A stretch of 64,000 bases of DNA. Origin: Ostreococcus lucimarinus. Lineage: Eukaryota. A program made the position numbers and the translations under genes. Below the pieces are notes generated by a model that worked only from the letters and a program-made list of their open reading frames with translations, did not search any database and was not told where the DNA came from. Positions 12,509 through 63,548 of this stretch are shown here, piece after piece. The stretch lies in assembly GCA_000092065.1 (NCBI GenBank), contig CP000593.1; one strand, given 5' to 3'. How positions within the stretch are numbered: position 1 is the stretch's first letter; each line of letters opens with the position of its first letter.

Positions 12509-13290
12509 ATGCCTCCCAATCGCGATTTCGCCACTCGCACCGCCCGTCGCGCGCCGCGCGCGTCCCGAACCACGCATCTTCTGGCGTTCGCGTTTGCGCT
12601 CGCCTCGTCGCGGCGCGGCGCCGCGCGCGCGGAAGACGGACTCGGTTGGCGCGAAGGCGGGACGGCCACGTGGTACGGCGGACCGAATGGTCCAGGCCCC
12701 GACGGCATGTCGATTTATACCGGGAGCTGTAAATACGGCTCGAACATTCCGAGTCACTACGTGGCCGCGTTGAATACCGACGGTACGTTGAACACCGACG
12801 CTGCTGCGTGGAATTTCAACTCTGAAAACATAAACTGCGCAGGTGGATACGATCACGGGCTCACGGACGAGTGCGGCGCGTGTTATGAAGTGATGTGCGT
12901 CGCGGGTCGGCAGCGAGGACTGGCCGACAGCGCGCTCGGCCCGTGGGCGGGCTGCGCGAACGGCGACGGCGAGAAATCGATCACAGTGCTAATCACAGAC
13001 AGTTGCCCGTGTGGCCATCCAAATCCGAGGTGAGGAAATTCGTCGGTGTCGCAATTTCTCGATCGATAAAAATTCGATCAATCTTTTGCGGCGCGCGCTC
13101 GAGACTGACGAACACGTGTTCACGCGTCAGTAATCAACGATGGTGCTGCGGTGGCGAACAAAACGCGCGCCACTTTGATTTGAGCTACGCGGCGTTCGAT
13201 TCCATCGCGATCAGGCACCGCGGCATCGTCGACGTCAAATATCGTAAAGTGAGTTGCGATGGGCTAGGACAAGAAAAGTATTATGCGTGA
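12509..13290 (+). CDS. Expansin / EG45-like (DPBB) secreted protein; 2 exons 12509..13029 and 13131..13290
   Basis: Signal-peptide-like N-terminus. GTATWYGG...GSCKYG, CGACYEVMC, then after splicing ...CPCGHPNPSNQRWCCGGEQNARHFDLSYAAFDSIA...VKYRKVSC. Intron GTGAGG...CGAGACTGACGAAC...CAG restores the frame and the HFDLS expansin block. Confidence 0.65.
13030..13130 (+). other. Spliceosomal intron (101 nt) in expansin-like gene
   Basis: Donor AG|GTGAGG at 13030, branch-like GAGACTGACGAAC, acceptor CAG| at 13128-13130. The splice joins phase-2 codon ag+t (Ser) and keeps the frame into the HFDLS domain. Confidence 0.6.
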
Positions 13291-24381: not shown

Positions 24382-27300
24382 CTACTTTCGTCTTCTGCTG
24401 CGACTAGAGGTACTTTTATTAGCAGGCGGAGTCGGCTCCACCGTTTTTCGTTTCTTCTTGTTGTCCGCGACTTCCGGTTCTGGTTTAGCGGGCGGCTTCG
24501 CTTCTTCTTCCGTCTTTGGCGGCTCCGGAGCTTCTTCAGCCGGCGGAGGCGCGGCTCGCTCCGGCGCTTTGTCCGTGTCCTTCGGCGCTGGACGGAACGG
24601 AACGTACGGAATACCTTGCGCCGCGCAGCACTCTGGGCAGGCAAACTTGACGTTTTCGGCGTTTTCGTCTTCCTCGCCCGGCGCCGGCGACTGCATGCCG
24701 ATGCACTCGTAATGAAACCAACCATCGCATCGATCGCAGCAAATCATCGGCCTGAGAGCGTCGTACGCGCTTCGGCAAACGCAATACAGTTCGCATCGCT
24801 CTCCCAACTCCTCGAGCTCCTCCTTCAAGTATAAAGGCAAAGATCGACCCTCTTGAAGCAGCAACTGCGCCGCCTCGATAGGAATCGTTTTGTCTTGCAC
24901 GACGGCGGCGGCGCGTTCGAGCCAGATTTGTCCAGCAACCTCCAACGCGTGCGCGCGATCGGCCAAAGGATCAATGCCGGCACCAGGGCAAAGACCAGCA
25001 GCCATGGCAGATTCCTTGAGCTCGTGAAGCTTGATCAACCTCGGGAACGGCGCACCAGTCATGAGCCGCGTGGCTTGTTCTCTCCACGCCGGACCGCACA
25101 CTTCGCGCATCAACGCGAGCGTCTCCTCAACAGGTTCCAGCTCCATCGCCAGAGCACCCTTCATGCCCGCGTACACTTGCAGCGCTGGATCGACATTATC
25201 TTTTCGAGGAATGTCATACGTGTAATCCATCTCTTGCTTGGGCATTCCAGACGCGTCGCCGACAAGCGATGGCATGGCCGGTTGCAACATGAACTGCTGC
25301 GGAACCATCATCGGTTCGTTCGTCTTCAACTGAGCAGACATATCGCTTGGACTACCATGACCCGTGGATGTTGAAGGTTCTTTGCCGGTGTCTTGCGCCG
25401 TCGGCGGCGGCATCATGCCAGACATTCCAGATAGTTGCAGAGTCGCTTCCATGAGCCAGTTGCTAGCGCCAACATTTGCCAGCTCTTCCTCGTGCTCGTT
25501 TGTCATCTTTAGATGCTGTTGCTGCATCATCAAGACGTGGAGGATGTGGGGCCTAGACCGAACTGGAGCCATGTGAATTTGAGCTTGGCACATCGCGAGT
25601 TGCATGGCGAGCTGTTGAAGTTGCCCGAGCTGCTTTGTGACGACATCTGAAATCTCCTGCGAACACGGCGAAATGTTCAACGCGTGCGTGCGCTGCGTTG
25701 CGGCGAACGTGACAGCTTGACCCATCAGCATGACTTGCTGTAATGGCGTGAGAGAAGCTGGAGGATTGGGGTTCTCTGCAGTCGCCGCGAGCGACGCTTC
25801 GGCGATTCGTCGTGTGCGTTCCTCAGATTCTCTCATCGCTGCTTCTTGGGCAATCTTCGAAGCTTGACTGATGGCGTTGTCGTGTGCTTCCTTCATACTC
25901 TTTCTATGCAAAGTCTTTCGTACTTCCAATCGCCACGCGTCGTGAGTATTGATGACTTGATTCAACACGGCTTCTTCTGGCACTTCTCCAGGAAATCGCT
26001 GCGCTTCACCGAGGAGTTCTCGCAAAAGCATGACGTTTGGGCGATTGGTGCGATGCACCGAGCGATACGTATCCAACGAGAGTGCGCTCGCCTTGCCACT
26101 CTTCGCGATGCATGGCGGACAGATGTAATTGTGCATCGTCTTTGCCATAGTAGGCGTCACATTGATACATTTTAAGTGATACCAGTCACCGCAATCATCA
26201 CATCCAACCATTTGAATTCCTCCAGCTTGTCGACAAAGGCAGAACTAACCCTCCTCCGTCTCCGGCGGTTCGCCAGTCCCGGTGATGTCTTCCACACCAG
26301 CTTTGATGGAATCAAGAACATTGCTCAACATTTCGATAAGCGTTTTTTCTTGTTTGACTTCACCCTGATCGTTTGCCCAGAGCAACGCGTTGAGCCTCTC
26401 CGTCCACGCCGTGGCGGCGTTGCACGCATTTGTGAGCGCTTGTCTCTCTGAGCACTTGAAGGTCAAATCTTCCACCTCCGCTAGAAGATCGTATAATTCG
26501 TCAATCGAAGGGCGAGATCGACCTTCAGCGACACTGTTCAAGCACTTACGAACGGTGTCGACCCACTGTGCGTGATCCGCCAACGACGCCTCGAGGTCTT
26601 CTACCTTCGAGACGTCAGCGGGAAGTGCCTTGCCTTCGGCGATGAGGGCGTCTATTTCCTCCGGTGATGCACTCGGAGCCAATCGACCGTCTTCAAGGAG
26701 AGGAGGATCGAGCAAACGATCCGCTTTCTTGCGCCATTCGTCCACAATCGTGTACCGTTTCATGATTTCAGCGACAAGATCCTCTTTCAAGTCTTGAAGC
26801 ACGTCGATTTCTTCCCTGAGCTCGTCCAAAACGGTGTCCTCGACGAGCTTCGCCTTGGGTGCAATGATCTTAGCGACGCGTTCTTCCCACTTGAGCGACT
26901 TTAAACGAATGCGAACTGTCTCCATGGCTGGTAATTCTAATCCAAAGTCTTCGTGCGAAAGTTCAAGCTCGGTCAACGTCACCTCGGCGCCGTCTTCTCG
27001 CCAGCGCTCGATGGCGTCCTTCGCGTCCACGTCCCACTCTTCTGCGGCTTCGACGCGTTCTTCCAAAGCTTCAACTTCCTTGACAAACAATTTCAAGTTC
27101 GAAGACTCTTTCATGAGCTCTTGCGCCTCGGAAAGCGGCGGAATCGGATTTGACACACCGCGACGAGTGAGCTGCTTTCCCTTCAAACAAGGTTGTGCAC
27201 GATCCAACCAAGACTTGGCTACATTGACCGCTTCTGAAAGCACGTCGAATCCATTCAGAAAGATTGGAATCGAGCTTCCTTCGCGGATGAGCGACGCGGC

Positions 27301-30300
27301 GTCTTCGAGTGACGGTCGGTCCTTACTATCGAGAGATTTGAGCATCACCGCCGCGCGCTCGTTCCACTTCTTCGCCGCGTTGATGTGGCTCTCGCACTGC
27401 GCCAGCAGCGCTTCTTCATCTGGGGCAACCTCTTTATCTTCGGAGTCGAGGAACTCGTTACCCGCCCGCACGGCCGCTTCGACTTCGGCGAGCGGATATT
27501 TCTTCGATGAAACCATGTCCTTCAATTTCTCTGCCAGCTCCCGGACGACGATACGGTTTCGCAACCACTCGACTTCGTCCACTCGCACGCTAAACTTTTC
27601 ACCCTCGACGAGAAGCATGTGCAAATCCGTCACTCTTGCTCCCGGATAATCACTCGCTCGAGCATGATCGGCCCACACTTTGACAGCTTTGATTTGATCG
27701 GCTAGTCTGTCGACCTCGTCGAGTTTTGTTGACAACGCCATGCCCTCCTTGAGAAGCGCCTCGGCTTCTTCCACGTCAACCTTGGCGACGAACAGCGACT
27801 CAGACTTTGCGCGCCAAAAATTCAACTCTTCTAAAGATTTGCGCAAAGTCAAGAGTTCGCTCTGCTGAACGGGTAATCCATGCGCCTCTTCGTATAACGC
27901 CTCGATCTCTCGAGCATTCGCTAGTTCCTCGCGCGGCGGGAGTTGTCGTCGTCCTGGAAGCGCGCCGCGCACCTTCGTGGACCACGCGCCTGCTCTAACG
28001 ATGACGTCCTTCAGCTTTTTATATGAAGGGACTTCCACACCAAACTTATTCGCTTCAGTTTGAAGCGTCGTACAAGCGCGAGGAGATGGATTCGGTACCT
28101 CGGCGAGAGCCGCCTTGATGCGTTCCTCCAATTTCAAGCCCGCCGCGAGCAAATCGCGGAAAGGTTGAGTATCAGCCTTAGGCATCGGTACCGGTGGGTT
28201 GTCAAGGAGCTCTTTTAGTCTGTTCAATCTCAATCGCGCTTCACCAGCGTCATCGTGCGCGGCCTCGGCACCAGCACTGGATCCAAGCCTTTGCTTCAGC
28301 GCCACAAGACTCGTCTGCCACGCGACGGCGTTCGTCACGCGAGTGTACGCTTCTCGAGCCGCCTTCATATCAGCACCACCCCAAATAAACTCTTCACCCG
28401 CAGCGAGTAAATTTCTCATCTTGTCCAGCGGCGGCAAAGGTGGTTTGACGAGCTCTTCGCCCACTCGTTTCACCCAAGCCTGAGCCTTCTTGACGAGATT
28501 CTTGTTCACTGTGACTGAGTCCAAGTCGCTGTGCTTGGATTTTAAGCTGGCTAGTTCCTTCTGAGAAAGCGCCTTCTCCGTCTTCTTCACCAGACTTTCT
28601 AAATCAGCCACTGTTTCTCTGTAAAACATCGTCTTCTTCGACATCGCACATTTGCACAAGTCGTTGACGTGTCGCAAGCACGCCTTGCGCGTCTCGTCGC
28701 ACGAGCACCCGACGCCAGACGAGTACAAAATGTGTCGACAAACAACGCACTCATCGGATCCAGAGTTCGATGCATCGTCAAACCTAGATCGTACTTTACG
28801 AGGCTTTTCGCAGCCATCGTCGTCGTCGTCGTCGTCTGCTGACGTCATTTGCGCGCTGCGCGTCACGCCAGACGCGAAAAGCTCGGCGCGACCGTTTGCC
28901 TCTTCAGCGTACAAGCGCGCAATCTCGGGCCACAAGTGCGGCGCTATGCTCGAACTAGGATTGTTTGCTACTCTGCAAACCAACTCGTCGTGACTAAACA
29001 ATGAACGCTTGGCGTACGATCGGTTTCTCTCCACGCTCGCCGAGCCCTCTGGGAGCCAGTCAGCGGGCACAAAGTTGACGCTCTCCGTGCAGTTCAATCC
29101 ACAGTTGAACGACGCGTAGTACGCCCCGGGATACGTCACCACGTATTCTCCTGGGAATTGCTCCAACGTGTGCACGGGCACTCCCGCGCTCATCAAGAAG
29201 CTCGGCGAGAGCATCGTAAAGACGCTTCCCAAATCGTTGACGTGCGCCTCGTAGACGTCGGGCATCACCTTCTGGAAGCATTCTTCCAACTTGTCCGCTG
29301 CACTCGCCGGCACGCAGTACCACAGTTTCGCGGCACCCCAGTGATTGTAAGTGATACTGTACATGTTATGCTCTTCTCGACGCCAAGTCGTGGAACTAAA
29401 CGTGCTTCCGACTTCTAAGAATGGCGTCGTCACGCCCGCCACGTCATCCTTCAACGCGCCCAGTAGCGACGACTTTTCCCCACTCGCGCGCGCGACGTTG
29501 TTGAGATTCCATTTCGACTCTGACCAGCGCTTGATAGATTCCGGGCTCACGCCGTCAATCTTTACCTGAAGCGCTTCGCCGTGTCTCGGGAACCCGCTTC
29601 CGTACTTTGTCGTGTCAATCGCCGTGCCGCATTTGACCTCGCAAACATCATCCACCGAGCTCGCATCTTCAACCATTCGCCAGAAACACTCCTCAATCAC
29701 CTGCATATCGATCCCAGTTCGCTTGGCGTCCTCGCCAAAGAACGCCGTATCAAATTCTATGCACGCCTCGTTGAAATCGCCGAGCGTAAACTGCGTCCCT
29801 TCATCCGCGCTCAATCGCTCCACCTCCGCGTCAATCTCTTCGCATCGTCCACAAAACCACTCTCCACTCGGCACTTCAGTCATCTTCGGCGTTAAGCAGT
29901 ACATATGTGACCTACGCGCGCATCATTCGTCAGTCTCGTCGCTCCTTCGCGGCTCCTTCTCCCCCGCGCGCCTCTAAACCCCACGTCTAACCGTCGCCCA
30001 CGCGCGCGTTCGCCGCGCCCTCGCGCGCCGCGCGAGCGCTCTCTCTCCCCGAACGCGCGTCCGAACGATCGAGATAATTTTCACGCGCGCGTTCTCGCGT
30101 GGCATTGTCGTATACGCACCCTCGATCGCACCCATCGCACAGGATCATCGCGTCTTCGTTCCCGCTCGCGCCGCACACGTCGCAGTCGGCGTCGCCCTCG
30201 GGCGCGTCCGCGAGCTGCGAGGCGACGAGATCGAGGCCCTGCGTCGCGAAAACACGCGCCGTAAAAGTCAGTCGCACGTCATCGCGACGCCCATCATCGC

Positions 30301-30820
30301 GCGCGCGCGTCGCACGCGCCGCGAACGCGTGCGATTCGCCGTCATCCCGGTCCCGCGCGAAGAAGATATGGCACGAATTACGCACATTTTCCACCTTGAC
30401 TCGCCGTTCGGGCGCGCCCGACGCCCCAAATTCGAGCCCACACAGCGCATCGATCGCCAGCGCGTCATCTTGTTCGATCTCTCCCTTCACCGCGTCGAAC
30501 TGCGCGCTCTTCACCGCGTCTTCTCTTCGCTTGGCGTCGCGCGCGAACGCCTCCAGCCACGCCCCGTGCAGCGCTCTCGCCGCGTGTCCCGCCGCGCATC
30601 CGCGTCCGTGCGCCCCGATCGCCTCCGCGACCTCGCGCCAGCCTTGATTTCCATCGATCGCGTCCGCGCCACCGCGTCTTTTCACCTCCTCGTACAGCGC
30701 GCGCAGGTCGAAGCGCCATCCTCGCACTCGATGGATGCGCCAACTCGCCCCTCGCGGCGCGCGTTCGTCCGGTCGCGACGCCCTGTGTCGCTCGTATTCG
30801 TCCCTGAACGGCACGCGCAT
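24382..30820 (-). CDS. KDM5/JARID1-type JmjC histone lysine demethylase (ARID, PHD, JmjC, C5HC2 zinc finger, PLU-1, PHD, PHD); at least 2 introns or interruptions
   Basis: ARID block DLRALYEEVKRRGGADAI..GWREVAEAIG; PHD1 split by an intron (CDVCGASGNEDAMILCDGCDRG | GSHMYCLTPKMTEVPSGEWFCGRC); JmjC GSTFSSTTWRREEHNMYSITYNHWGAAKLWYCVP; C5HC2 finger; two C-terminal PHDs with CxC spacing. Exon 30820..30120, intron 30119..29912, exon 29911..26248, in-frame TAG at 26245-26247, then 26244..24382. 5' start (ATG 30820) uncertain. Confidence 0.7.
29912..30119 (-). other. Spliceosomal intron (208 nt) inside PHD finger 1 of the KDM5-like gene
   Basis: Donor CGAGG|GTGCGT, branch CGAGACTGACGAAT, acceptor GCGTAG|. 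Splicing gives CDGCDRGGSHMYC, a canonical C-x2-C-x5-H-x2-C PHD core. Confidence 0.65.
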
Positions 30821-41182: not shown

Positions 41183-42950
41183 TCATCGCTTGCGCATGTT
41201 CACGCCCGCTCTGAGAACCTCATCCGTGCAGAGTAACTGCGTGGCGATGATGGGCGCAGAGTGCAGAATTTGCTGTTTGACGAGAAAGTTGTCGTAGATA
41301 CCACTCATGGTGGGGTCGAAGGGCTCGCCGATGCTGATATCGAAACCGACGACGTTGCCTCTGTCGTGCTCCTCTTGCATGTCGATGATGGCGTCTTGCG
41401 GATCGTAACCGCTGTTCTCCGCGAGTGTCTTCGGGACCACGAGCATGGCTTCCGCAAACGCCTCGACGCCGCGTTTCGCGCGACCTTCGACCATCTTGGT
41501 GACGTTCTCCTTCAAGTGCTTGTTCAAGGCCATCTCAAACGCACCCGCGCCCGGAACCACGGCCTTGTCGGTCAACACATTCTTCACCGCCCGCAAGCCA
41601 TCTCGCACCGCATCCTTGAGCTGTGCGATGGTGTGATCGTTCGAGCCTTTTAAAAGTACCGTGCACGACGTCGGGTTGACGACTTTTTCCACAAAAGTGT
41701 ACTTTTCCTCGCCCAAGACGTACTCGTACACTTCGCCGGCGTGGCCCAAAATTTCCGGCGAGAGTTCCTCAACAGAGTTGATGCATTGACCACCACATGC
41801 GAGGACGAGACGCTCCATGTTTCGGCGCTTGGCGCGACGAAGTCCCATAATGCCTTCCTTACAGAGCATGTCCAGAGAGATTGGGTCGATCCCCTTTTGT
41901 GTGATGACGACGAAACCCTTGTCGTTGCCGTCGCACACCTGCTTCTTGAGCGCGATCACCTTGCGCACGGTTTCATCGGTGTACGCGCGCTCGGCGGCGA
42001 CCATCTTCTCGCGCTGTTCCGCATCGGTGTACATGAACGTCGAGTTCACCTCCGATCGTTCGTATTCCAGGCTGATGTTACACGTCAACACGAACGCGTC
42101 CTCCACGTATCTCTTCATATCCGGATGTCTCGCCCCGTGGTCGAGGACCAAACCCTGAATCAATTTGGTTTCGTCATCCGTCTGATGCTTCATGGTCATG
42201 ATCTCCACCATGTGCAAATCGATCGACTCTTCCGGTTTGGCGATGCACAACACAGCGTCGACGACGATCGTCGTCAACTTATCAGCCAACTCTTCCCGCA
42301 ACTTTGTTCGCAACGCCGTGCGCGCCACGCACAACAACATTTCTCGATCCGGCGCTTCCACACCCGGCGCCGCGCGCTTGAACGTTTCCAAAAACTTCAG
42401 CGACTCGCGTTTCGCCACATCGAATCCCTCCACGATCACTCTCGGATGCAAACCCTCATTCAAATACCGCTCCGCTTGCTTCAACAACTCTCCGATGACG
42501 AGCACCGTCGTCGTCGTCCCGTCCCCGGTGATATCATCCTGCGCCACCGCCGTCCTCGCGATCATGATCGCCGTCGGGTTTTGAATCTGCATCTCTCTCA
42601 GCAGCACGTTCCCATCCTTCGTGAGCTTCAAACCTACGCACATCGATTTCAACATCGCCGTCAGTCGTTCGGTCAACAGAGTCAACGCCGCGCCGCGTTC
42701 GCGCGAAATCCAACAGATCACCGTCACCGCGCATCTCTCACGCGCCGCCGTGACGCGCGAAACCGCGATGTATCGACGAAACGATCGTACACGCACCTCC
42801 AGCACCGTCGACGAGCATCTTGATCGTCCCTTTCGGGCCTAAATTCGTCTTCATCACGTCTTGGAGACCCTTGGCGGCGTTGATGTTCATGAACAGCGCG
42901 GCATCGGCGTTCATGAGCTCGGCGTTGGGGTTGATGGACTTGAGCGACAT
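41183..42950 (-). CDS. CCT6: T-complex protein 1 subunit zeta (CCT6); 2 exons 42950..42797 and 42633..41183
   Basis: Exon 1 [51 protein letters not shown], exon 2 [27 protein letters not shown]...: collinear with CCT zeta across the splice. GDGTTT and GPN-type chaperonin blocks. Confidence 0.85.
42634..42796 (-). other. Spliceosomal intron (163 nt) in CCT6
   Basis: Donor GGAG|GTGCGTGT, branch ACGACTGACGGCG, acceptor GTGCGTAG|. Phase 1. The ORF-track 'start' of the long CCT6 ORF (42805) is intronic. Confidence 0.75.
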
Positions 42951-45640: not shown

Positions 45641-46181
45641 AAGACACATACTCTTGAGTCATGAACCGTCGACGAAACGCACGCGTCGACGCATCCTCGC
45701 GAAGACCCCAGGACGGCGGCGGCGCCATTCTTCGACGGTCAAAGGTGCGCCCGCGCGCGGCGAACGACGCGCGCGCGACGGCGATCGACGGACGCGGCGG
45801 TGGGAAATATTCGCGCGCGTCGCGGCGCGCGCGCGAGGGCGCGCGACGACGCGAGGGCGAGGCGATGCGGGCGCCGCGCGATCGATCGCGGACGACGATC
45901 GATCGCGGACGGCGCGCGGACGACGATCGGACGCGGTGACGCCGCGATGCGACGCGCGAGGCGTCGGTCGCGGATGGAAACGATCGGGAGGAATACGCGC
46001 GCGATGGATCGGGCGGCGCGGGACGCGCGCGAGGGTCGCGAGCGAGGGGGGGGGGCGAGGTTGACGATCGCGATCCGATGGCGGCGCGATGGCGGGAGGT
46101 TTGGACGCGGGACGAGGCGAGACGAGAGGAAGGGGGACTGACGATGCGCGCGTGGCTCGAAACAGTTGAAATAAACGCACA

Positions 46182-47585
46182 ATGTCTGAAGGCAAGGAAC
46201 ATCTTTCCATCGTGATCTGCGGTCACGTCGATTCCGGTAAGTCGACGACGACCGGTCGCTTGTTATTCGAGCTCGGGGGTATCCCGGAGCGCGAACTCGA
46301 AAAGCTTCGCGCCGAAGCCGATGCGCTCGGTAAGTCTTCTTTCGCGTTCGCGTTCTACATGGATCGCCAAAAGGAAGAGCGTGAGCGTGGTGTGACGATT
46401 TCTTGCACGACCAAGGAATTCTTCACGGACAAGTGGCACTACACCATCATCGACGCCCCGGGTCACCGCGATTTCATCAAGAACATGATTTCCGGCGCGG
46501 CGCAAGCCGATGTGGCGCTTCTCATGGTGCCGGCGGACGGTAACTTCACGGTCGCCATCCAAAAGGGTAACCACAAGGCTGGTGAAGTCCAAGGCCAAAC
46601 GCGCCAGCACGCGCGTCTTCTCAACTTGCTCGGCGTCAAGCAGCTCATTTGCGGCATCAACAAGATGGATTGCGACATGGCTGGCTACAAGCAAGAGCGT
46701 TACGAAGAAATTCGCAACGAAATGAAGAACATGTTGATCAAGGTCGGCTGGAAGAAGGATTACGTCGAGAAGAGCGTCCCGGTCCTCCCGATCTCTGGCT
46801 GGAACGGCGACAACTTGTTGTCCAAGTCCGCGAAGATGCCGTGGTGGAACGGCGTCGACGTCGAAGACTACATGGGCGGCGGCAAGAAGTTCCACATCGA
46901 CTGCCTCCTCAACGTCCTCAACGACATGGTCGACAAGCCGGACCGCAACACGGAAGCCGCCATGCGCCTTCCGATTTCCGGTGTCTACAAGATCAAGGGT
47001 GTCGGTGATGTCCTCGCCGGTCGCGTCGAGCAAGGTCTCGTCAAGCCGGGTGAAGACGTCGTCTTCCTCCCGACCCACACCTCCTCCAACCCGTGCGGTG
47101 GTAAGGTGTTCACCGTCGAAATGCACCACAAGCGCGTCGAAGCCGCCGCGCCGGGTGACAACGTCGGTATGAACATCAAGGGTCTCGACAAGCTCAACAT
47201 GCCGCGCACCGGTGACGTGATGATCTACAAGAAGGACACCTCCCTCGCCCCGTGCAAGGAGTTCACCGCGCAAATCCAAACCTTGGACATTCCGGGTGAA
47301 CTCAAGGCGGGCTACAGCCCCATCGGTTTCGTCCGATGCGGCCGCTCCGCGTGCAAGTTGACCGCGCTCAACTTCAAGGTTGGCAAGGAAACCGGCGGTA
47401 AGAAGCTCGAGTCCCCGATGTCGTTGAAGTCCAACGAAGTCGCCGAGTGCGTCTTCGAGCCGGTCCACCCGCTCGTCGTCGACTCCTTCAAGAAGTGCGA
47501 AGGTCTTTCCCGCATCGCTTTCTTGGACGGTAACACCGCCGTCATGTTGGGTAAGATCACCAAGGTTGAGTACAAGGCCATCTAA
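46182..47585 (+). CDS. EFL: Elongation factor-like GTPase EFL (replaces EF-1alpha)
   Basis: GHVDSGKST, DAPGH, NKMD GTPase motifs with EFL-specific insertions (e.g. MPWWNGVDVEDYMGGGKKFHIDCLL). 467 aa uninterrupted. ATG verified at 46182. Confidence 0.9.
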   Translation: MSEGKEHLSIVICGHVDSGKSTTTGRLLFELGGIPERELEKLRAEADALGKSSFAFAFYMDRQKEERERGVTISCTTKEFFTDKWHYTIIDAPGHRDFIKNMISGAAQADVALLMVPADGNFTVAIQKGNHKAGEVQGQTRQHARLLNLLGVKQLICGINKMDCDMAGYKQERYEEIRNEMKNMLIKVGWKKDYVEKSVPVLPISGWNGDNLLSKSAKMPWWNGVDVEDYMGGGKKFHIDCLLNVLNDMVDKPDRNTEAAMRLPISGVYKIKGVGDVLAGRVEQGLVKPGEDVVFLPTHTSSNPCGGKVFTVEMHHKRVEAAAPGDNVGMNIKGLDKLNMPRTGDVMIYKKDTSLAPCKEFTAQIQTLDIPGELKAGYSPIGFVRCGRSACKLTALNFKVGKETGGKKLESPMSLKSNEVAECVFEPVHPLVVDSFKKCEGLSRIAFLDGNTAVMLGKITKVEYKAI

Positions 47586-47766: not shown

Positions 47767-49880
47767 CTACTTGGAAATCTTTGCACACGCGCGTTCGAGC
47801 CACGTTTTAGTCTCCCCCGACACTCGCGGGGAAATTTGTTGCCAAACTTTTTCGTGATACGCGTTCACCCACGCGATTTCTTTTTCACTCATAATGCTCA
47901 AGTCCATGAGTTTCGTTTGAATCGGGATCAACGTCAAGACGTCAAAGCATAAAAATCCAGTGTCTCCGAAGTTGTGCGCAGTCTTCGCCTCCTTCACTTG
48001 CAGAAGCGTCTCGATGCGGATACCGAACGCACCGTCTTCGTAATACCCCGGCTCGTTGCTCAAGATCATTCCTGGCATAAGGGGCGTCATGTTTCCAAAA
48101 CGCGGAGAGATTCCTTGCGGACCTTCGTGCACGTTGAGCGCCGCGCCGACGCCGTGGCCGGTGCCGTGACGGTAATCCAAGCCGTTGGCCCACAGGTGCG
48201 ATCGCGCAAAGGCGTCGAGAACGAAACCTTTCGTGCCGACAGGGAAAACCATTTGGTCGAGTGCGATGTGACCTTGGAGCACGCGCGTGTAGCACTCCTT
48301 TTGATGAGCGGTGGGCGTTCCGAAGTGCACCGTTCGAGTGACATCCGTCGTGCCACACGCGTACTGGCCGCCGCTGTCGCAGAGTAATAAGCTGTCCTTA
48401 CCGATAGCCCTCGCGCTCTTTTTCGAAGCACGGTAGTGCACCACGGCGCCATGAGGACCTTCACCCGCGATCGTCGGGAACGATTCTTCGAAGAAACCGT
48501 TTTGCTTGGCTCGGCACGCCAAGACCCTCTCGCCAGCTTCGTACTCGTCAATGGCGCGCCCCTCGGCGACGTCTCGCTCGATCGCGCACCAGAATTCAGC
48601 CATCGCAGCGCCATCCATGAGGTGGGCTTCGACCATACCGGCCATCTCGGCCTCATTCTTCACCGCCTTTGCGATCGGGACCGGACACGTGCCCTCCTTG
48701 ATGGCGGACGGCGCGCTCTCCGTCTTCACCTTTTTCGCATCCTTGGGCGCTTCGGCGGCTCCGGCTTCAGCCTGTTCGAGCATGGCGATGGAGACCTTAT
48801 CGACGTCCATCCAGAGTCGCTCACCGCGCTGTGCCGCGGCATACACGTCTTTGGCCATGTCTTCGTACGGCTTGATCGTCACGTTTGCCTCGGCGAGATG
48901 CGCCACGACTTCAGGCGTCGCCTTGTCCGTGTCGACGTAAAACGAAGCGTCGTTTTCACCCACCAAGACGTAAGACAACGTCACCGGATTACACGGTGCA
49001 TCACCGCCTCGAACATTGCATAGCCACATGACGTCATCCAACGAGCTCACGACGAGCTTCTGCGCGTCGTTTTCCTTCATTTTTTCTCGAAGGTTTTCCA
49101 ATTTTTCCGCCACGCTCTTCCCCGCGTACTCCATCGGGTGCACTCTGAGCGGCGTCTTCGGGAACGGTGGACGATCGCTCCAAACCAAATCTACCAAGTT
49201 CTCTTCGACGCTCATCAACTCGATCCCGCACGCGCTCAACGCTTCTCTCAAACCTCGCGCCTCGCTCACCGAGTGCACGTTTGGATCGATGCCCACCTTG
49301 GCTCCGGTAAACGCCAGTCCCGCCTCCTCCGCGCACAACCACTTCTTCACGTCCGGCACATCCTTCACCCCACTTCGCATCAGAGTCCAGTCCTCGCTCA
49401 GCTCGTCTTCAGCCTGCACGAAATACCGTCCATCCGTCCACAACAACGCCGCCGCGTCCGTCACCACCACCGTCCCCGCCGACCCCGTAAAATCGCTCAA
49501 CCATCGTCGTCGCTCGAAGCACGCCGCCACGTACTCACTGCGTTCCCCACAAAAACACGCCCTCGCCCGTTCGTCAGTCTTTCCCGTCGCGCGCGTCGTC
49601 GTTCCTCGTTTCGTTCGTTCGCCTTCGCTTCGCCGACGCGCCTAAAGTGCGGATCCTGCGACGGCACGACGACCGCTCGCACCCCTCGCTTCGCCATCGC
49701 CTCTCGCACCGCCGCGAGCTTCGACGCGTTCGAGCGTTCGCCCGTCGTCATGCTCGCTCGCTCGGCGATCGCGGCGTCGCGCGCGCGGGTCGTCGTTTTG
49801 AGTTTTCGAGCGGCGAGGCGACGCGATGACGTCGGCGTTCTCGCGGCGACGCGCGCGGCGACGAGACGCGCGGCGCGCAT
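47767..49880 (-). CDS. Xaa-Pro aminopeptidase (aminopeptidase P, M24B), organellar presequence; 2 exons 49880..49642 and 49537..47767
   Basis: HGTGHGVG and SNEPGYY M24 motifs. N-terminal domain collinear with XPNPEP1 only after splicing: ...VVVPSQDPHF|SEYVAACFERRRWLSDFTGSAGT. ORF-track 'M' at 49530 is a GTG inside exon 2. Confidence 0.7.
49538..49641 (-). other. Probable GC-AG spliceosomal intron (104 nt) in the aminopeptidase P gene
   Basis: Donor AG|GCGCGT (the favoured GTGCGT with C at +2), branch AAGACTGACGAAC, acceptor AACGCAG|. Splicing gives H-F-S-E-Y, matching the conserved H-Q-S-E-Y. The alternative canonical pair CGC|GTCGGC / TGAG|TAC gives a poorer match. Confidence 0.55.
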
Positions 49881-50103: not shown

Positions 50104-52402
50104 CTAACAGCGCTCGAAAATTTTGTACAACTGCTCGAGGCACGCGATCTGAATGACGGTGCCGTCGTCGGCGAAACGACGAGGCGGGGCGAGACGGCGC
50201 TTCATCGCGGGAAAGACGCAGAGGCGAGCGACGCGACGAGCGTCGGACTCGGCGTCGCCTTCTTCGGCTTTCGGATCGTGGAAAGAGCAGTCCATGGCGA
50301 AAAATGCGCCGATGACTCGAGCGCAGGTTTCGAAGCACTCTTTTTCACTCGTCCAATCGACGTCTTCGGCGAGGGCGAGGACGAACTCGGGAAGTTTGCC
50401 GATTTCCGGCGCGTACCCGGGAAGCATCGACGGCACTCCGGTGATCTGACGCCGTTCCTTGTCGATGACGACGCCGAGATACTCCTTGAGCATGTCCGCC
50501 TTTTCGACGAGCATCTCTGCGATTTTCTCTGCGACTTCCTCCTTGGAGCCATCGCTCGCGTCCCACTCTTCGTCGTCGACGAATTTATCCTCCAGCGCGC
50601 ACAGCGCGAGTTCGGCCAAAGACGCGGGATCTTGCAGCGATTGGTACCCAAAGTTGGCGAAGTTCTTCAAAGCCATTTGATGGAACATTTCCTCGGTGAG
50701 CTTTACGGCGTCCACCATGAAGAGCTTGGTTTGGTGCTGAAGTAACCACACGCCTTTGCGCGCGTCCACGGCGCCGACGAGTGTGTGATTTTTAATCACG
50801 TCGCCGAGCTCCTTGTGCGCGCGATTGGCGATTTCGGTGTTAAGCTGGCGAATAGACGTCAACTCGCACACGTACGTGTCTTCGGGTTCCGTGCGCTGTC
50901 CTCGACGCTCTCTCACCGCGCGTCGAACCTCTTCTATTTTCTCGTGTTCGCGTCCCTCGGAATTCATCGCTCGCTGCAAGTACGCGTCCAAACTCCCCGC
51001 TGCTAAATTCGCATCCGTGCGAACGAGCTTGTGATCACCACCCGCGCGTTCGCGCTGTGTCCGCATCGTCTTCGCCTGCGACGCCGGCGGTTCGTCCGCT
51101 TTTTCGCTATTTTCCTTGTCGCCGCTTCGCTCGGCGTCGTTTTCGTCATCCTTCTTTGCCAGTTTCTCCGCGCCAGGAAGCAGTGTTTGCACGGTGAATG
51201 TTCGCGACGAATTCGTCGCGAGAAGAATCTTCTCTAGTTTGGACTGAATCAACTCCACAATGGCTTCTTGGTGCAGAAAGTGCACCTCCTGTTTCGTGGG
51301 ATGCACGTTGACGTCGACGTCTTCAAACGGCAGGCGGAGGTGCATGAATACAAACGGCTTCTCAGCCTTGGGGAGTATCGCCGCGTACACCGACTCACAC
51401 GCGCGCTTGAGCGGCGCGCACTCCACTAAACGCGAATTGATGAACAAAATGAACGTCGTCTTCTTTGAATGATAATTCCCACCGCTCACTAAACCGTCCA
51501 CTTGCAGCTTGAAATCAAACTTTTTCTTGGACAGCTCGCTGTCGAAGTCGAGCTTCTTCAAATCTCTCGCCACCGTGGGACCGTAAATCGCCTGCAACCG
51601 CTCGACGCGCGATTGCGCCACGGGAGTGTGCAACGTCGCTCGCGACTCACCGTGCTTCCGACACGTGAACGCCACATCCGTTCGCAACGCCGCGTACCTC
51701 TGCAACACCTCGAGCACTTTCGAGTACTCCTCTGACGCGCTCTTCAACGCCTTCCTTCGAGTCACGACGTTATAAAACAAGTTCTCCACGCTAATCGTAG
51801 TTCCTAACACCCCCGCGATCGGTTTCGCCCCCTCCGCATCCATCTTCCCATCCGTATACGTCGCTCGAGTCGCGTGCGTCGCCCCCGCCGCCATCGTCGT
51901 CGCCGACACGTGCGCCACGTAGCTCATGCTCGCCAGCGCCTCTCCTCGAAACCCAAAGCTCTCGCATCGCGCTAAATCCTCAAACTTTTCAATCTTACTC
52001 GTCGCGTGTCGCTCGCACAGCAGCGGCAAGTCCTCTATTCGCACTCCGTGTCCGTCGTCTTGCACTCGCAACAGTTTATTCCCGCCCTCCCTCGTCGTCA
52101 CCGCGATCGACTTCGCGCCCGCGTCCAACGAGTTCTCCACCAGCTCTTTCAGCGCGTTCGACGGTCGATGGATCACCTGCGCGCGCGTTCGGTCGTCGCG
52201 TCGTCTCGCGTCGTCAGTCGCGCGTTCGCGTCGTCCGTCGTCGAGCTGACGTTCAAACATTCAATCTCTCATCGCGCGCGCCGTCGCGCGCCGGCCCTCG
52301 ACGCACCTCTCCCGCGGCGACGCGATTGACGACGTCGCTCGGCAGGCGCCCGATGGCGCGCGGCGTCGACGCGCCGTCGCGCGCGCCGTCACCGCGCGTC
52401 AT
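50104..52402 (-). CDS. MLH1: DNA mismatch repair protein MLH1; 2 exons 52402..52307 and 52176..50104
   Basis: Exon 1 MTRGDGARDGASTPRAIGRLPSDVVNRVAAGE restores the MutL N-terminal block (VVNRIAAGEVI), then VIHRPSNALKELVENSLDAGA, GFRGEALAS, C-terminal ...LEQLYKIFERC. ATG verified (complement of 52400-52402). Confidence 0.85.
52177..52306 (-). other. Spliceosomal intron (130 nt) in MLH1, holding the misleading ORF-track start at 52260
   Basis: Donor GAG|GTGCGT, branch GCGACTGACGACG, acceptor GCGCGCAG|. Phase 0. Confidence 0.75.
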
Positions 52403-62690: not shown

Positions 62691-63548
62691 TCAAGCGGAC
62701 GCGTCGCCGCGCTCGCGCCTATTTTGGGCTTCTAAATCTTTCAACGCGGTCTCCACGCGACGCATGATCTGCGCGTGCAGATGGTCGCGCGCCTTGGCGT
62801 TCTTCTCGCAGCGCGCGCACTTGGCCGTCAAGTCGGTCAAATCGAGCGGTTCGCCGACGGTAACGTGCACGCGCTTACCCACGCCAATCTCCCATCGCCC
62901 GTACGGTTTTACGTCGGACATGCCGGAGTGCCAAAACGGTAGCACCATCGGCGGCGTTCCGCCCGCGATCTCGACGTCGCACAGCAATTTCGCCACGCCT
63001 CTTCGCATCGTTCCCAACTCTCCGTCGCGACTGACGCGACCCTCGGGAAACAAGTGCACCCAATCCCCTCTCAGTAACAGATTCGCCGCCGTTCGCATCG
63101 CCGGCTGCTCCACCCCACCGCCTCGCTTGATCGCCAGCGCCTTACCGCACAAGAAAAAGCTCTCTCGCAGCTTGGTTTTCGCGCAAATCTCATCCGTGCA
63201 CAGCGTCCACCGCACGCCCCCGCGCCGCGGCTCGCCGACGAAGACCGACCACGGGATCAGCGCGCTCAGCATTCCCGGGTCGTCGAACGTGCTCACGTGA
63301 TTGCACACCGTGAGTAATCCCTGCGCGTTCGCTCGATCGCGATTCGCGATGGCGCGCTCGAACGTCGCGAGATTCGTCGTCGTCGTGACGTTGGCGACGT
63401 CCAGGACGCACTTGCTGAACGCCGCCACCGCGGCGAGCACCGCCTGACGCCCGACGACGCCCCAGGGCGAGGCCGTGGGCAGGACGTCGTCGTAGACCGC
63501 GCGTCCGCTCGTCGAGGGCGCGGCGTCGCCGGACGACGGCGCGGACAT
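62691..63548 (-). CDS. TAZ: Tafazzin-family lysophospholipid acyltransferase
   Basis: TVCNHVSTFDDP (HxxxxD acyltransferase motif), DWVHLFPEGRVS, LPFWHSGMSDV collinear with tafazzin. ATG verified at 63548. Confidence 0.7.
   Translation of the reverse strand: MSAPSSGDAAPSTSGRAVYDDVLPTASPWGVVGRQAVLAAVAAFSKCVLDVANVTTTTNLATFERAIANRDRANAQGLLTVCNHVSTFDDPGMLSALIPWSVFVGEPRRGGVRWTLCTDEICAKTKLRESFFLCGKALAIKRGGGVEQPAMRTAANLLLRGDWVHLFPEGRVSRDGELGTMRRGVAKLLCDVEIAGGTPPMVLPFWHSGMSDVKPYGRWEIGVGKRVHVTVGEPLDLTDLTAKCARCEKNAKARDHLHAQIMRRVETALKDLEAQNRRERGDASA

What the first reader, a model, noticed from the sequence alone, without database searches (positions are those of the whole stretch)
13030..13130. Highly constrained intron signals: donor G(T/C)GCGT, branch (C)GACTGACG(A), acceptor YAG, in all five introns found
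Introns in expansin (13030-13130), KDM5 (29912-30119), CCT6 (42634-42796), aminopeptidase P (49538-49641) and MLH1 (52177-52306) were each located independently by protein homology. Every one carries GACTGACG 17-36 nt before the 3' AG. Four of five start with G(T/C)GCGT; the expansin donor is GTGAGG. Three share the longer CGAGACTGACGAA. The octamer GACTGACG and its complement occur nowhere else in the window except a one-mismatch hit inside TrmH coding sequence. This looks like hemiascomycete-style strictness of branch-site recognition, and it gives a practical rule for finding the rare introns in this compact genome. The longer shared 13-mer and a shared ...TCTCGATCG... segment in the expansin and KDM5 introns raise the possibility that some introns are related copies (introner-like). 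I cannot establish that from five examples.
Basis: partly seen in the sequence, partly recalled or inferred. Interest (0 to 1): 0.55.

Follow-up and report, generated by a model that had tools for sequence, protein, structure and literature searches.

The report
Known strict intron signals of Ostreococcus
The window comes from the tiny green alga Ostreococcus lucimarinus, and the shared GACTGACG branch site and GTGCGT donor in its rare introns are real, but they were described for this species in 2008, so the finding is correct and ordinary.

Summary
The window is Ostreococcus lucimarinus CCE9901: several proteins match its RefSeq entries exactly.

All five introns sit at the stated coordinates.
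- Three are removed exactly in transcript-like contigs (expansin, CCT6, aminopeptidase P).
- Two give spliced proteins identical to the RefSeq models (CCT6, MLH1).
- The KDM5 intron is conserved at the same site in three diverged relatives.
- Each carries GACTGACG, with its branch A 18-37 nt before the 3' splice site.

Some details are wrong.
- The octamer occurs seven times, not five.
- Only two introns, not three, share the 13-mer.
- The window holds at least three more introns. One, in the expansin gene, is transcript-supported and has no CTGAC at all.

This signal set is already published for this species. Irimia & Roy (2008) report the ACTGAC/GACTGACG branch site, GTGCGTG donor, CGCAG acceptor and 20-35 nt branch-to-AG spacing. 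Later work generalised it to Mamiellales, with a standard U1 snRNA.

The introner idea finds no support here.
- Intron interiors are no more alike than shuffled sequence after correction for 28 comparisons.
- Both KDM5 introns are old.
- The shared TCTCGATCG sits on a very common CGATCG background.

Whole-genome clustering could not be run.

The parts
13030..13130 (+). Expansin-like (DPBB) gene, intron 2. 101 nt, phase 2, donor GTGAGG, branch CGAGACTGACGAA (octamer 13103-13110), acceptor CGTCAG.
   Evidence: Removed exactly in contig L013. Splicing restores the conserved ...HPNPSNQRWCCGG...HFDLSY. Absent from the syntenic ortholog L018.
12783..12842 (+). 60 nt, phase 1, in frame and stop-free, GC 0.48, donor GTACGT, acceptor GCGCAG. 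No CTGAC or ACTGAC anywhere.
   Evidence: The transcript-derived protein P0076 and contig L013 lack exactly these 60 nt. All homologues lack the 20 residues. Absent from ortholog L018. Composition.
29912..30119 (-). KDM5/JARID1 intron B. 208 nt, phase 2, donor GTGCGT, branch CGAGACTGACGAA (octamer 29928-29935), acceptor GCGTAG.
   Evidence: Splicing joins CDGCDRG to SHMYCLTP of the PHD finger. Same position in L014, L015 and L016, with GT[GA]CG[TC] donor and GACTGACG conserved and the rest diverged. Lengths are 208, 233 and 454 nt where measurable.
30239..30385 (-). 147 nt, phase 0, in frame and stop-free, donor GTGCGT, branch GACTGACT (30266-30273), acceptor ACGCAG.
   Evidence: In ten homologues the protein is conserved up to VEN|VR (VR = GTGCGT) and again from Q|GLD (Q = CAG). 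The stretch between varies in length and sequence. DNA of four species keeps donor, GACTGAC and CGCAG. No transcript evidence was obtained.
42634..42796 (-). CCT6 (T-complex zeta) intron. 163 nt, phase 1, donor GTGCGTG, branch CGACTGACGG (octamer 42659-42666), acceptor GCGTAG.
   Evidence: Contig L012 (1,895 nt, 100% identical) lacks it exactly. The spliced 534-aa protein equals XP_001421126.1.
45745..46165 (+). Predicted 5'UTR intron of the EF-1alpha-like (EFL) gene. 421 nt, donor AAAG|GTGCGC, branch GGGACTGACGA (octamer 46136-46143), acceptor AAACAG, 16 nt before the ATG at 46182.
   Evidence: In relative L004 (93% identical overall) the donor, the short upstream exon, the branch and the acceptor are conserved, while sequence upstream of the putative exon 1 does not align. 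The second EFL copy (L003) has an unrelated upstream sequence, again with GACTGACG 30 nt before an AG that sits 2 nt before its ATG. No transcript evidence.
49538..49641 (-). Xaa-Pro aminopeptidase intron. 104 nt, phase 2, GC-AG type, donor GCGCGT, branch AAGACTGACGAA (octamer 49572-49579), acceptor ACGCAG.
   Evidence: Contig L011 lacks it exactly. The spliced 669-aa protein is present as a single ORF in a Logan assembly. Donor and branch are conserved in L004.
52177..52306 (-). MLH1 intron. 130 nt, phase 0, donor GTGCGT, branch GCGACTGACGAC (octamer 52212-52219), acceptor GCGCAG.
   Evidence: The spliced 722-aa protein equals XP_001421130.1. Splicing joins VNRVAAGE to VIHRPSNALKELVENSLDA.
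63029..63036 (+). Seventh GACTGACG. Not an intron signal: it lies antisense to the coding sequence of an acyltransferase gene (62691-63548, minus strand).

Best explanation
These are ordinary U2-type spliceosomal introns of the 'standard' (non-outlier-chromosome) part of the Ostreococcus lucimarinus genome.

In this intron-poor alga most introns carry near-consensus core signals:
- donor (A)G|G[T/C]GCG[T/C];
- branch site (G)ACTGAC(G), with the second A as the branch nucleotide, about 18-37 nt before the 3' splice site;
- acceptor, often CGCAG.

Mechanism (inferred from established splicing biology, not tested here):
- ACUGAC pairs with the GUAGUA box of U2 snRNA. The G of UGAC forms a G.U wobble and the branch A bulges out.
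- The invariant flanking G's are more likely read by the branch-point binding protein or other protein components than by U2.
- The atypical +4C donor is used with a standard U1, according to the literature.

Because the motif carries most of the information, purifying selection holds it fixed while the rest of each intron drifts. A minority of introns, here the 60-nt expansin intron, lack the motif.
For: **Organism.** EFL, the KDM5 C-terminal ORF, CCT6 and MLH1 are identical to O. lucimarinus CCE9901 RefSeq proteins.

**Splicing at the stated boundaries.**
- Contigs L011, L012 and L013 are collinear with the window except for exact deletion of the introns.
- They end 47-175 nt after the stop codons, as mRNAs do.

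**Motif placement.**
- Six of seven GACTGACG, and seven of thirteen ACTGAC, lie on the sense strand in the last 18-37 nt of introns that total about 1.3 kb.
- None lies in sense coding sequence.

**Selection on the signals.** In four species whose KDM5 N-terminal protein is only about 50% identical, donor, GACTGAC and CGCAG are kept in both introns. Interiors diverge and change length.

**Literature.**
- Irimia & Roy 2008 (PMC2483917) used EST-confirmed non-chromosome-2 introns of this species. They found 87.2% with ACTGAC, 66.5% with GACTGACG, donor GTGCGTG, acceptor CGCAG and branch-to-AG spacing of 20-35 nt.
- The window gives 7/8 with ACTGAC and 6/8 with GACTGACG.
- Verhelst 2013 (PMC3879977) reports AG|GTGCGT and NCTGAC in Micromonas.
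- bioRxiv 10.1101/2022.06.08.495308 reports GYGCGY donors across Mamiellales with a standard U1.
Against: - The MLH1 and KDM5 B introns rest on annotation, homology and conservation, not on transcripts.
- KDM5 A and the EFL 5'UTR intron are predictions only.
- The transcript-like contigs come from public runs whose nature (RNA or DNA) I could not look up. L013 is chimeric at its 5' end.
- The U2 and SF1 steps of the mechanism were not tested. No snRNA gene lies in the window.
- One intron of eight lacks the motif, so recognition cannot depend on it absolutely.
Confidence: 0.93

Rival explanations
1. Some of these introns are related copies of a mobile introner-like element, comparable to the 64-67-nt ABC-IE/IE-C introners of Micromonas commoda that carry the same GACTGACG. 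On this view the shared 11-13-mer and the TCTCGATCG are remnants of common descent.
For: - Verhelst 2013 reports an introner family in a sister genus with exactly this extended branch motif.
- Expansin intron 2 and KDM5 intron B share the 13-mer CGAGACTGACGAA and a TCTCGATCG.
- Both expansin introns are precisely absent from the syntenic ortholog L018 and from more distant homologues. A lineage-specific gain is therefore possible.
Against: - With donor and branch-to-3' regions masked, none of the 28 intron pairs is significantly similar after correction. Expansin i2 against KDM5 B gives p = 0.14.
- The best alignments are CG-rich low complexity.
- CGATCG occurs 200 times in the window, so TCTCGATCG (3 times) is weak evidence.
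- KDM5 introns A and B are at the same sites in four diverged species, so they are old.
- The papers retrieved by searching 'Ostreococcus' with 'introner' describe introners in Micromonas and none in Ostreococcus.
- Absence from L018 is equally explained by precise loss of two neighbouring introns.
Confidence: 0.05
2. The strict and atypical signals reflect a co-evolved or second set of snRNAs. Candidates are a U2 or U1 variant complementary to GACUGACG or GUGCGU, serving the standard genome separately from the outlier chromosome.
For: - Irimia & Roy 2008 raised this as 'worth exploring'.
- The G's flanking ACUGAC and the +4C of the donor do not pair with canonical U2 and U1. This rests on my own knowledge of snRNA sequences.
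Against: - A later search found one strong U1 candidate in each of five Mamiellales, all with the standard pairing region.
- Only single snRNA copies were reported for O. tauri.
- Nothing in the window bears on it: Rfam gave no match.
Confidence: 0.07
3. The recurrence of the octamer is a compositional accident of a CG-rich genome.
For: The window-wide count is not above chance. There are 7 against 4.2 expected, and 17 of 100 shuffles reach 7.
Against: - Six of the seven lie on the sense strand 18-37 nt before independently supported 3' splice sites. About 0.007 are expected in those zones.
- The motif is retained at orthologous positions in relatives while its surroundings diverge.
Confidence: 0.01

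Closest known systems
Canonical (non-chromosome-2) spliceosomal introns of Ostreococcus lucimarinus, as characterised by Irimia & Roy 2008 (PLoS Genet 4:e1000148)
   Same: Same species and the same strings: GACTGACG extended branch site, GTGCGT(G) donor and CGCAG acceptor preference. Branch-to-AG spacing is about 20-35 nt, introns are about 100-200 nt, and intron density is low. The window proportions (7/8 ACTGAC, 6/8 GACTGACG) match the published 87% and 66.5%.
   Different: Nothing of substance. The window adds individual examples: a GC-AG case, a probable 5'UTR intron, and one motif-less intron.
Hemiascomycete yeast introns (UACUAAC branch site, GUAUGU donor)
   Same: An intron-poor genome, a near-invariant branch-site heptamer or octamer, a strong donor consensus, and introns biased to the 5' ends of genes. 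Here CCT6, MLH1, aminopeptidase P and EFL show that bias.
   Different: The consensus differs: ACUGAC against ACUAAC, and +4C against +4U. This is independent convergence in a green alga. In Ostreococcus the same cell also splices a second intron class with weak signals on the outlier chromosome.
Micromonas commoda ABC-IE / IE-C introner elements (Verhelst 2013; Simmons 2015; van Baren 2016)
   Same: They carry the identical GACTGACG branch motif. They occur in a sister genus of Mamiellales. They show presence/absence differences between related lineages, as the two expansin introns do.
   Different: Introners are defined by similarity along their whole length among many copies at unrelated sites, and ABC-IEs are about 64-67 nt. 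The window's introns are 101-421 nt and share nothing beyond the splice signals. At least two of them are ancient.
BOC1 (outlier chromosome 2) short introns of Mamiellales
   Same: Expansin intron 1 is 60 nt, has lower GC (0.48) and has no recognisable branch motif. That matches the 40-65-nt signal-poor class.
   Different: It lies in a high-GC standard region, not in the low-GC outlier region. Its donor GTACGT and acceptor GCGCAG are still close to consensus.

Membership tests
Canonical Mamiellales / O. lucimarinus standard-genome spliceosomal introns | Removed from mRNA at GT/GC-AG boundaries | tested here: met
   Exact removal in transcript-like contigs for expansin i2, CCT6 and aminopeptidase P. 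Spliced proteins are identical to RefSeq for CCT6 and MLH1. KDM5 B is supported by domain continuity and orthologous conservation.
Canonical Mamiellales / O. lucimarinus standard-genome spliceosomal introns | ACTGAC / GACTGACG branch motif about 20-35 nt upstream of the 3' splice site | tested here: met
   All five reported introns, plus the EFL 5'UTR intron, have GACTGACG. KDM5 A has GACTGACT. The branch A lies 18-37 nt from the intron end.
Canonical Mamiellales / O. lucimarinus standard-genome spliceosomal introns | Donor consensus G[T/C]GCG[T/C] | tested here: met
   GTGCGT in four introns, GCGCGT in one and GTGCGC in one. The exceptions are GTGAGG (expansin i2) and GTACGT (expansin i1).
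Canonical Mamiellales / O. lucimarinus standard-genome spliceosomal introns | Located outside the low-GC outlier region of chromosome 2 | tested here: met
   Window GC is 0.52-0.70. There are about 8 introns in about 37 genes. The matching record is about 0.53 Mb long. The chromosome number itself was not read from a record.
Introner / introner-like elements | Sequence similarity along the element among introns at non-homologous sites | tested here: not met
   28 pairwise local alignments of masked interiors were compared with dinucleotide shuffles. The minimum p is about 0.005, not significant after correction, and those alignments are low complexity.
Introner / introner-like elements | Many copies across the genome | not testable with these tools
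   No searchable copy of the O. lucimarinus genome was available. The single metagenome scan returned only near-identical contigs of the same locus.
Introner / introner-like elements | Recent insertion, seen as presence/absence between close relatives | tested here: inconclusive
   KDM5 A and B are present at the same sites in four diverged species, so the feature is not met for them. Expansin i1 and i2 are absent from the syntenic ortholog L018, which could be gain or loss.
BOC1-type short introns (considered for expansin intron 1 only) | 40-65 nt, low GC, no branch motif, located in the low-GC outlier region | tested here: inconclusive
   Length (60 nt), GC (0.48) and absence of CTGAC are met. 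Location is not met, because the surroundings are GC about 0.61.

The most novel reading that the evidence does not exclude
The two expansin introns are lineage-specific gains in the O. lucimarinus clade. Both are precisely absent from a syntenic ortholog and from more distant homologues. On this reading intron 2, which shares the 13-mer CGAGACTGACGAA with an unrelated old intron, derives from a so far undescribed low-copy introner-like source. That source would be related to the GACTGACG-bearing ABC-IE elements of Micromonas. It would make Ostreococcus a second Mamiellales genus with active intron gain.
Probability: 0.06. Interest if true: 0.5.

Novelty: already known. Interest (0 to 1): 0.12.

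Why it matters
As a description of splice signals it adds nothing new. The same motif strings, spacing and yeast parallel were published for this species in 2008 and later extended to the whole order.

Its practical use is for annotation. On the sense strand of this window, every ACTGAC inside a gene's coding region or 5' leader marks an intron.

The rule has limits. The donor hexamer is uninformative, and in-frame introns without the motif, such as the 60-nt expansin intron, are invisible to ORF-based reading.

The open biological questions remain untouched by this window:
- what reads the invariant flanking G's;
- how one spliceosome serves two intron classes;
- whether any Ostreococcus introns are recent gains.

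Tried and rejected
- **Rfam scan of the window for snRNA genes.** No matches, so U1/U2 complementarity could not be examined.
- **Metagenome scan with aminopeptidase P.** It returned only 99-100% identical contigs plus two unrelated fragments, which are useless for footprinting.
- **Looking for the NCBI chromosome record with its gene models.** Only metagenome and Logan contigs with prokaryote-style ORF calls came back.
- **Exact look-up of my first expansin model with intron 1 retained.** Not found. This led to the homology search that exposed the 60-nt intron.
- **Homology search with the spliced KDM5 N-terminus.** No junction-spanning, transcript-derived protein was found, so KDM5 intron A remains a prediction. 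The hits did supply orthologues for footprinting.
- **Rule-based scan with donor G[TC]GCG[TC] upstream of ACTGAC.** The donor term is satisfied everywhere and adds no specificity.
- **Test for avoidance of ACTGAC in sense coding sequence.**
  - 0 were observed against 4.95 expected under codon permutation (5/1000).
  - The reverse-complement pentamer GTCAG is depleted as well (0/1000).
  - I therefore do not read the result as selection against cryptic branch sites.
- **Candidate second expansin donor GTGAGT at 13250.** Rejected: it is in-frame coding sequence (KYRKVSC) conserved in homologues.
- **Pfam scans of about 30 other ORFs.** No truncated domains that would point to further split genes.

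Full report
**Source of the window**

Exact protein look-ups identify Ostreococcus lucimarinus CCE9901.
- The EFL ORF 46182-47585 equals XP_001420985.1, and the ORF 24382-26211(-) equals XP_001421121.1.
- My spliced CCT6 and MLH1 models equal XP_001421126.1 and XP_001421130.1.
- GC content is 0.52-0.70.
- Genes are packed and mostly single-exon, with complete Pfam domains.
- The matching record is about 0.53 Mb long. This is the standard genome, not the low-GC outlier part of chromosome 2.

**Checking the observation**

I obtained direct evidence of removal for three, from contigs assembled from public sequencing runs. These contigs are collinear with the window except for exact deletions.

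| Contig | Size and identity | Segment missing | Gene |
|---|---|---|---|
| L012 | 1,895 nt, 100% identical | 42634-42796 | CCT6 |
| L011 | 3,039 nt | 49538-49641 | aminopeptidase P |
| L013 | 1,441 nt | 13030-13130 | expansin |

The contigs stop 47-175 nt after the stop codons, as mRNAs would. I could not look up whether the runs are RNA or DNA, and L013 is chimeric at its 5' end.

- CCT6 and MLH1 splicing reproduces the RefSeq proteins exactly.
- The aminopeptidase intron is a true GC-AG intron, because the conserved HF|SEY junction leaves no alternative.
- Each of the five has GACTGACG with the branch A 18-37 nt from the intron end.

**Errors of detail**

- The octamer occurs seven times, not five.
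  - 46136(+) lies 22 nt before a CAG that sits 16 nt upstream of the EFL start codon.
  - 63029(+) is antisense to an acyltransferase coding sequence.
- The total count is not above chance: 7 against 4.2 expected. The significance lies in placement. Six octamers fall in branch zones where about 0.007 are expected.
- One-mismatch variants number 65, fewer than the shuffles give.
- Only two introns share CGAGACTGACGAA. Three share AGACTGACGAA.
- G[TC]GCGT has no discriminating power, because GCGCGT is ubiquitous here.

1. *Expansin intron 1, 12783-12842.*
   - It is 60 nt, in frame and free of stop codons.
   - The donor is GTACGT and the acceptor GCGCAG. GC is 0.48, and there is no CTGAC anywhere.
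   - The transcript-derived protein P0076 and contig L013 lack exactly these 60 nt. Every homologue lacks the 20 residues.
2. *KDM5 intron A, 30239-30385.*
   - It is 147 nt, in frame and free of stop codons.
   - Its signals are GTGCGT...GACTGACT...ACGCAG.
   - In ten homologues the protein is conserved up to VEN|VR and resumes at Q|GLD.
   - 'VR' is the donor GTGCGT and 'Q' is the acceptor CAG. The stretch between varies in length and sequence.
3. *A probable 421-nt 5'UTR intron of EFL, 45745-46165.*
   - The donor AAAG|GTGCGC, a short upstream exon, the branch and the acceptor are conserved in a 93%-identical relative. Sequence further upstream does not align.
   - The second EFL copy has an unrelated upstream sequence with the same arrangement.

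The window therefore holds at least eight introns. Seven have ACTGAC and six have GACTGACG.

**Evidence for selection on the signals**

I fetched DNA of three syntenic relatives whose KDM5 N-terminus is only about 50% identical in protein.
- Both KDM5 introns are at the same sites in all of them.
- GT[GA]CG donors, GACTGAC and (C)GCAG are retained. Interiors diverge.
- Intron A is 147, 168, 165 and 171 nt in the four species. Intron B is 208, 233 and 454 nt in the three where its 3' end could be located.

**What it is**

These are ordinary U2-type introns of an intron-poor genome, with information concentrated in the core signals. Splicing at the boundaries and conservation of the motif are shown here. 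Pairing of ACUGAC with the U2 GUAGUA box, with a G.U wobble and a bulged A, is inferred from general splicing knowledge. So is protein recognition of the flanking G's. No snRNA gene lies in the window.

**Comparison with the literature**

Irimia & Roy 2008 (PMC2483917) analysed EST-confirmed O. lucimarinus introns outside chromosome 2. They reported:
- 87.2% with ACTGAC and 66.5% with the extended GACTGACG;
- the atypical donor GTGCGTG;
- a CGCAG acceptor preference;
- a branch-to-AG peak at about 20-35 nt;
- an explicit comparison with hemiascomycete yeasts.

Other papers extend the picture.
- Verhelst et al. 2013 (PMC3879977) give AG|GTGCGT and NCTGAC for Micromonas.
- A 2022 preprint (10.1101/2022.06.08.495308) reports GYGCGY donors across Mamiellales with a standard U1 snRNA.

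The finding is therefore a correct rediscovery.

**The introner suggestion**

- With donor and branch-to-3' regions masked, 28 pairwise local alignments were compared with dinucleotide shuffles. The minimum p is about 0.005, which is not significant after correction.
- The best alignments are CG-rich low complexity.
- TCTCGATCG occurs three times on a background of 200 CGATCG.
- The KDM5 introns are ancient.
- The one point in favour is that both expansin introns are precisely absent from the syntenic ortholog L018 and from more distant homologues. That is compatible with lineage-specific gain, and equally with loss.
- A whole-genome clustering test could not be run with the collections available.
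- The papers retrieved by searching 'Ostreococcus' with 'introner' describe introners in Micromonas, and none in Ostreococcus.

**Verdict**

The 'strict signals' interpretation is right but published. The 'all introns' implication and the introner suggestion are not supported. Novelty: already known. Interest is low.

Noticed in passing
window 26245-26247 (-), between ORFs 26245-29904 and 24382-26211: An in-frame TAG cuts the KDM5/JARID1 gene just before a PHD finger (…ETEEG*FCLCRQAGG…MVGCDDCGDWYHLKC). Environmental relatives in the same 90%-identity protein cluster have uninterrupted 1841-aa ORFs with Q (CAG) at this codon. RefSeq annotates the downstream piece as a separate 609-aa 'predicted protein'. 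The same stop is present in a Logan assembly (SRR1179203). It is probably a nonsense change in the culture strain.
   Followed up: partly
window 30239-30385 (-); L014:3212-3379, L015:950-1114, L016:3272-3442: KDM5 intron A is a multiple of 3 in length (147, 168, 165, 171 nt) and free of in-frame stops in all four species examined, although indels have changed its length. It also keeps an 8-mer CCATATCT 13-25 nt after the 5' splice site, and that 8-mer is read in different frames in different species. This suggests that intron retention is tolerated, or that the element is a nucleotide-level (regulatory or structural) feature. Four species are too few to exclude chance (about 1%).
   Followed up: partly
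window 29912-30119 (-) and orthologues (alignment A4): KDM5 intron B retains a short internal block, GTTTAGA(G), in all four species. A GACGGTTA-like block is visible in three of them by eye but not as aligned columns in A4. All other sequence diverges. Function unknown.
   Followed up: no
window 12783-12842 and 13030-13130 (+); L018:1890-2208: Both expansin introns are precisely absent from a syntenic orthologue (64% protein identity; same EamA-like and Pyr_redox_2 neighbours). More distant homologues also lack them and instead carry an insertion after ...YTGSC. The intron positions of this gene differ between Mamiellales lineages.
   Followed up: partly
window 46182-47585 (+); L002, L003: The EFL protein is encoded by at least two identical copies in different genomic contexts. 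L003 and L002 have SAM decarboxylase and an RNB-domain gene downstream. The copies are identical from 1 nt before the ATG but have unrelated upstream regions, each with its own GACTGACG-bearing 5'UTR intron-like stretch. L003 also carries an exact evening-element-like AAAATATCT upstream.
   Followed up: partly
whole window, sense coding sequence (about 56 kb): ACTGAC never occurs in sense coding sequence: 0 against 4.95 expected by codon permutation (5/1000 permutations). GTCAG is also strongly depleted (21 against 37), so the effect is not clearly specific to the branch motif.
   Followed up: yes
window 13103-13130 (+): In expansin intron 2 the branch motif CTGACG and the acceptor CGTCAG are reverse complements of each other, separated by 14 nt (…gaCTGACGaacacgtgttcacgCGTCAGt…). 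This could form a hairpin bringing the branch and the 3' splice site together. It was not tested and may be chance.
   Followed up: no
L013:1-568: The first 568 nt of the transcript-like contig that confirms the expansin introns do not match the window or any fetched locus. They join at a CTCGT repeat, which probably reflects an assembly chimera.
   Followed up: yes
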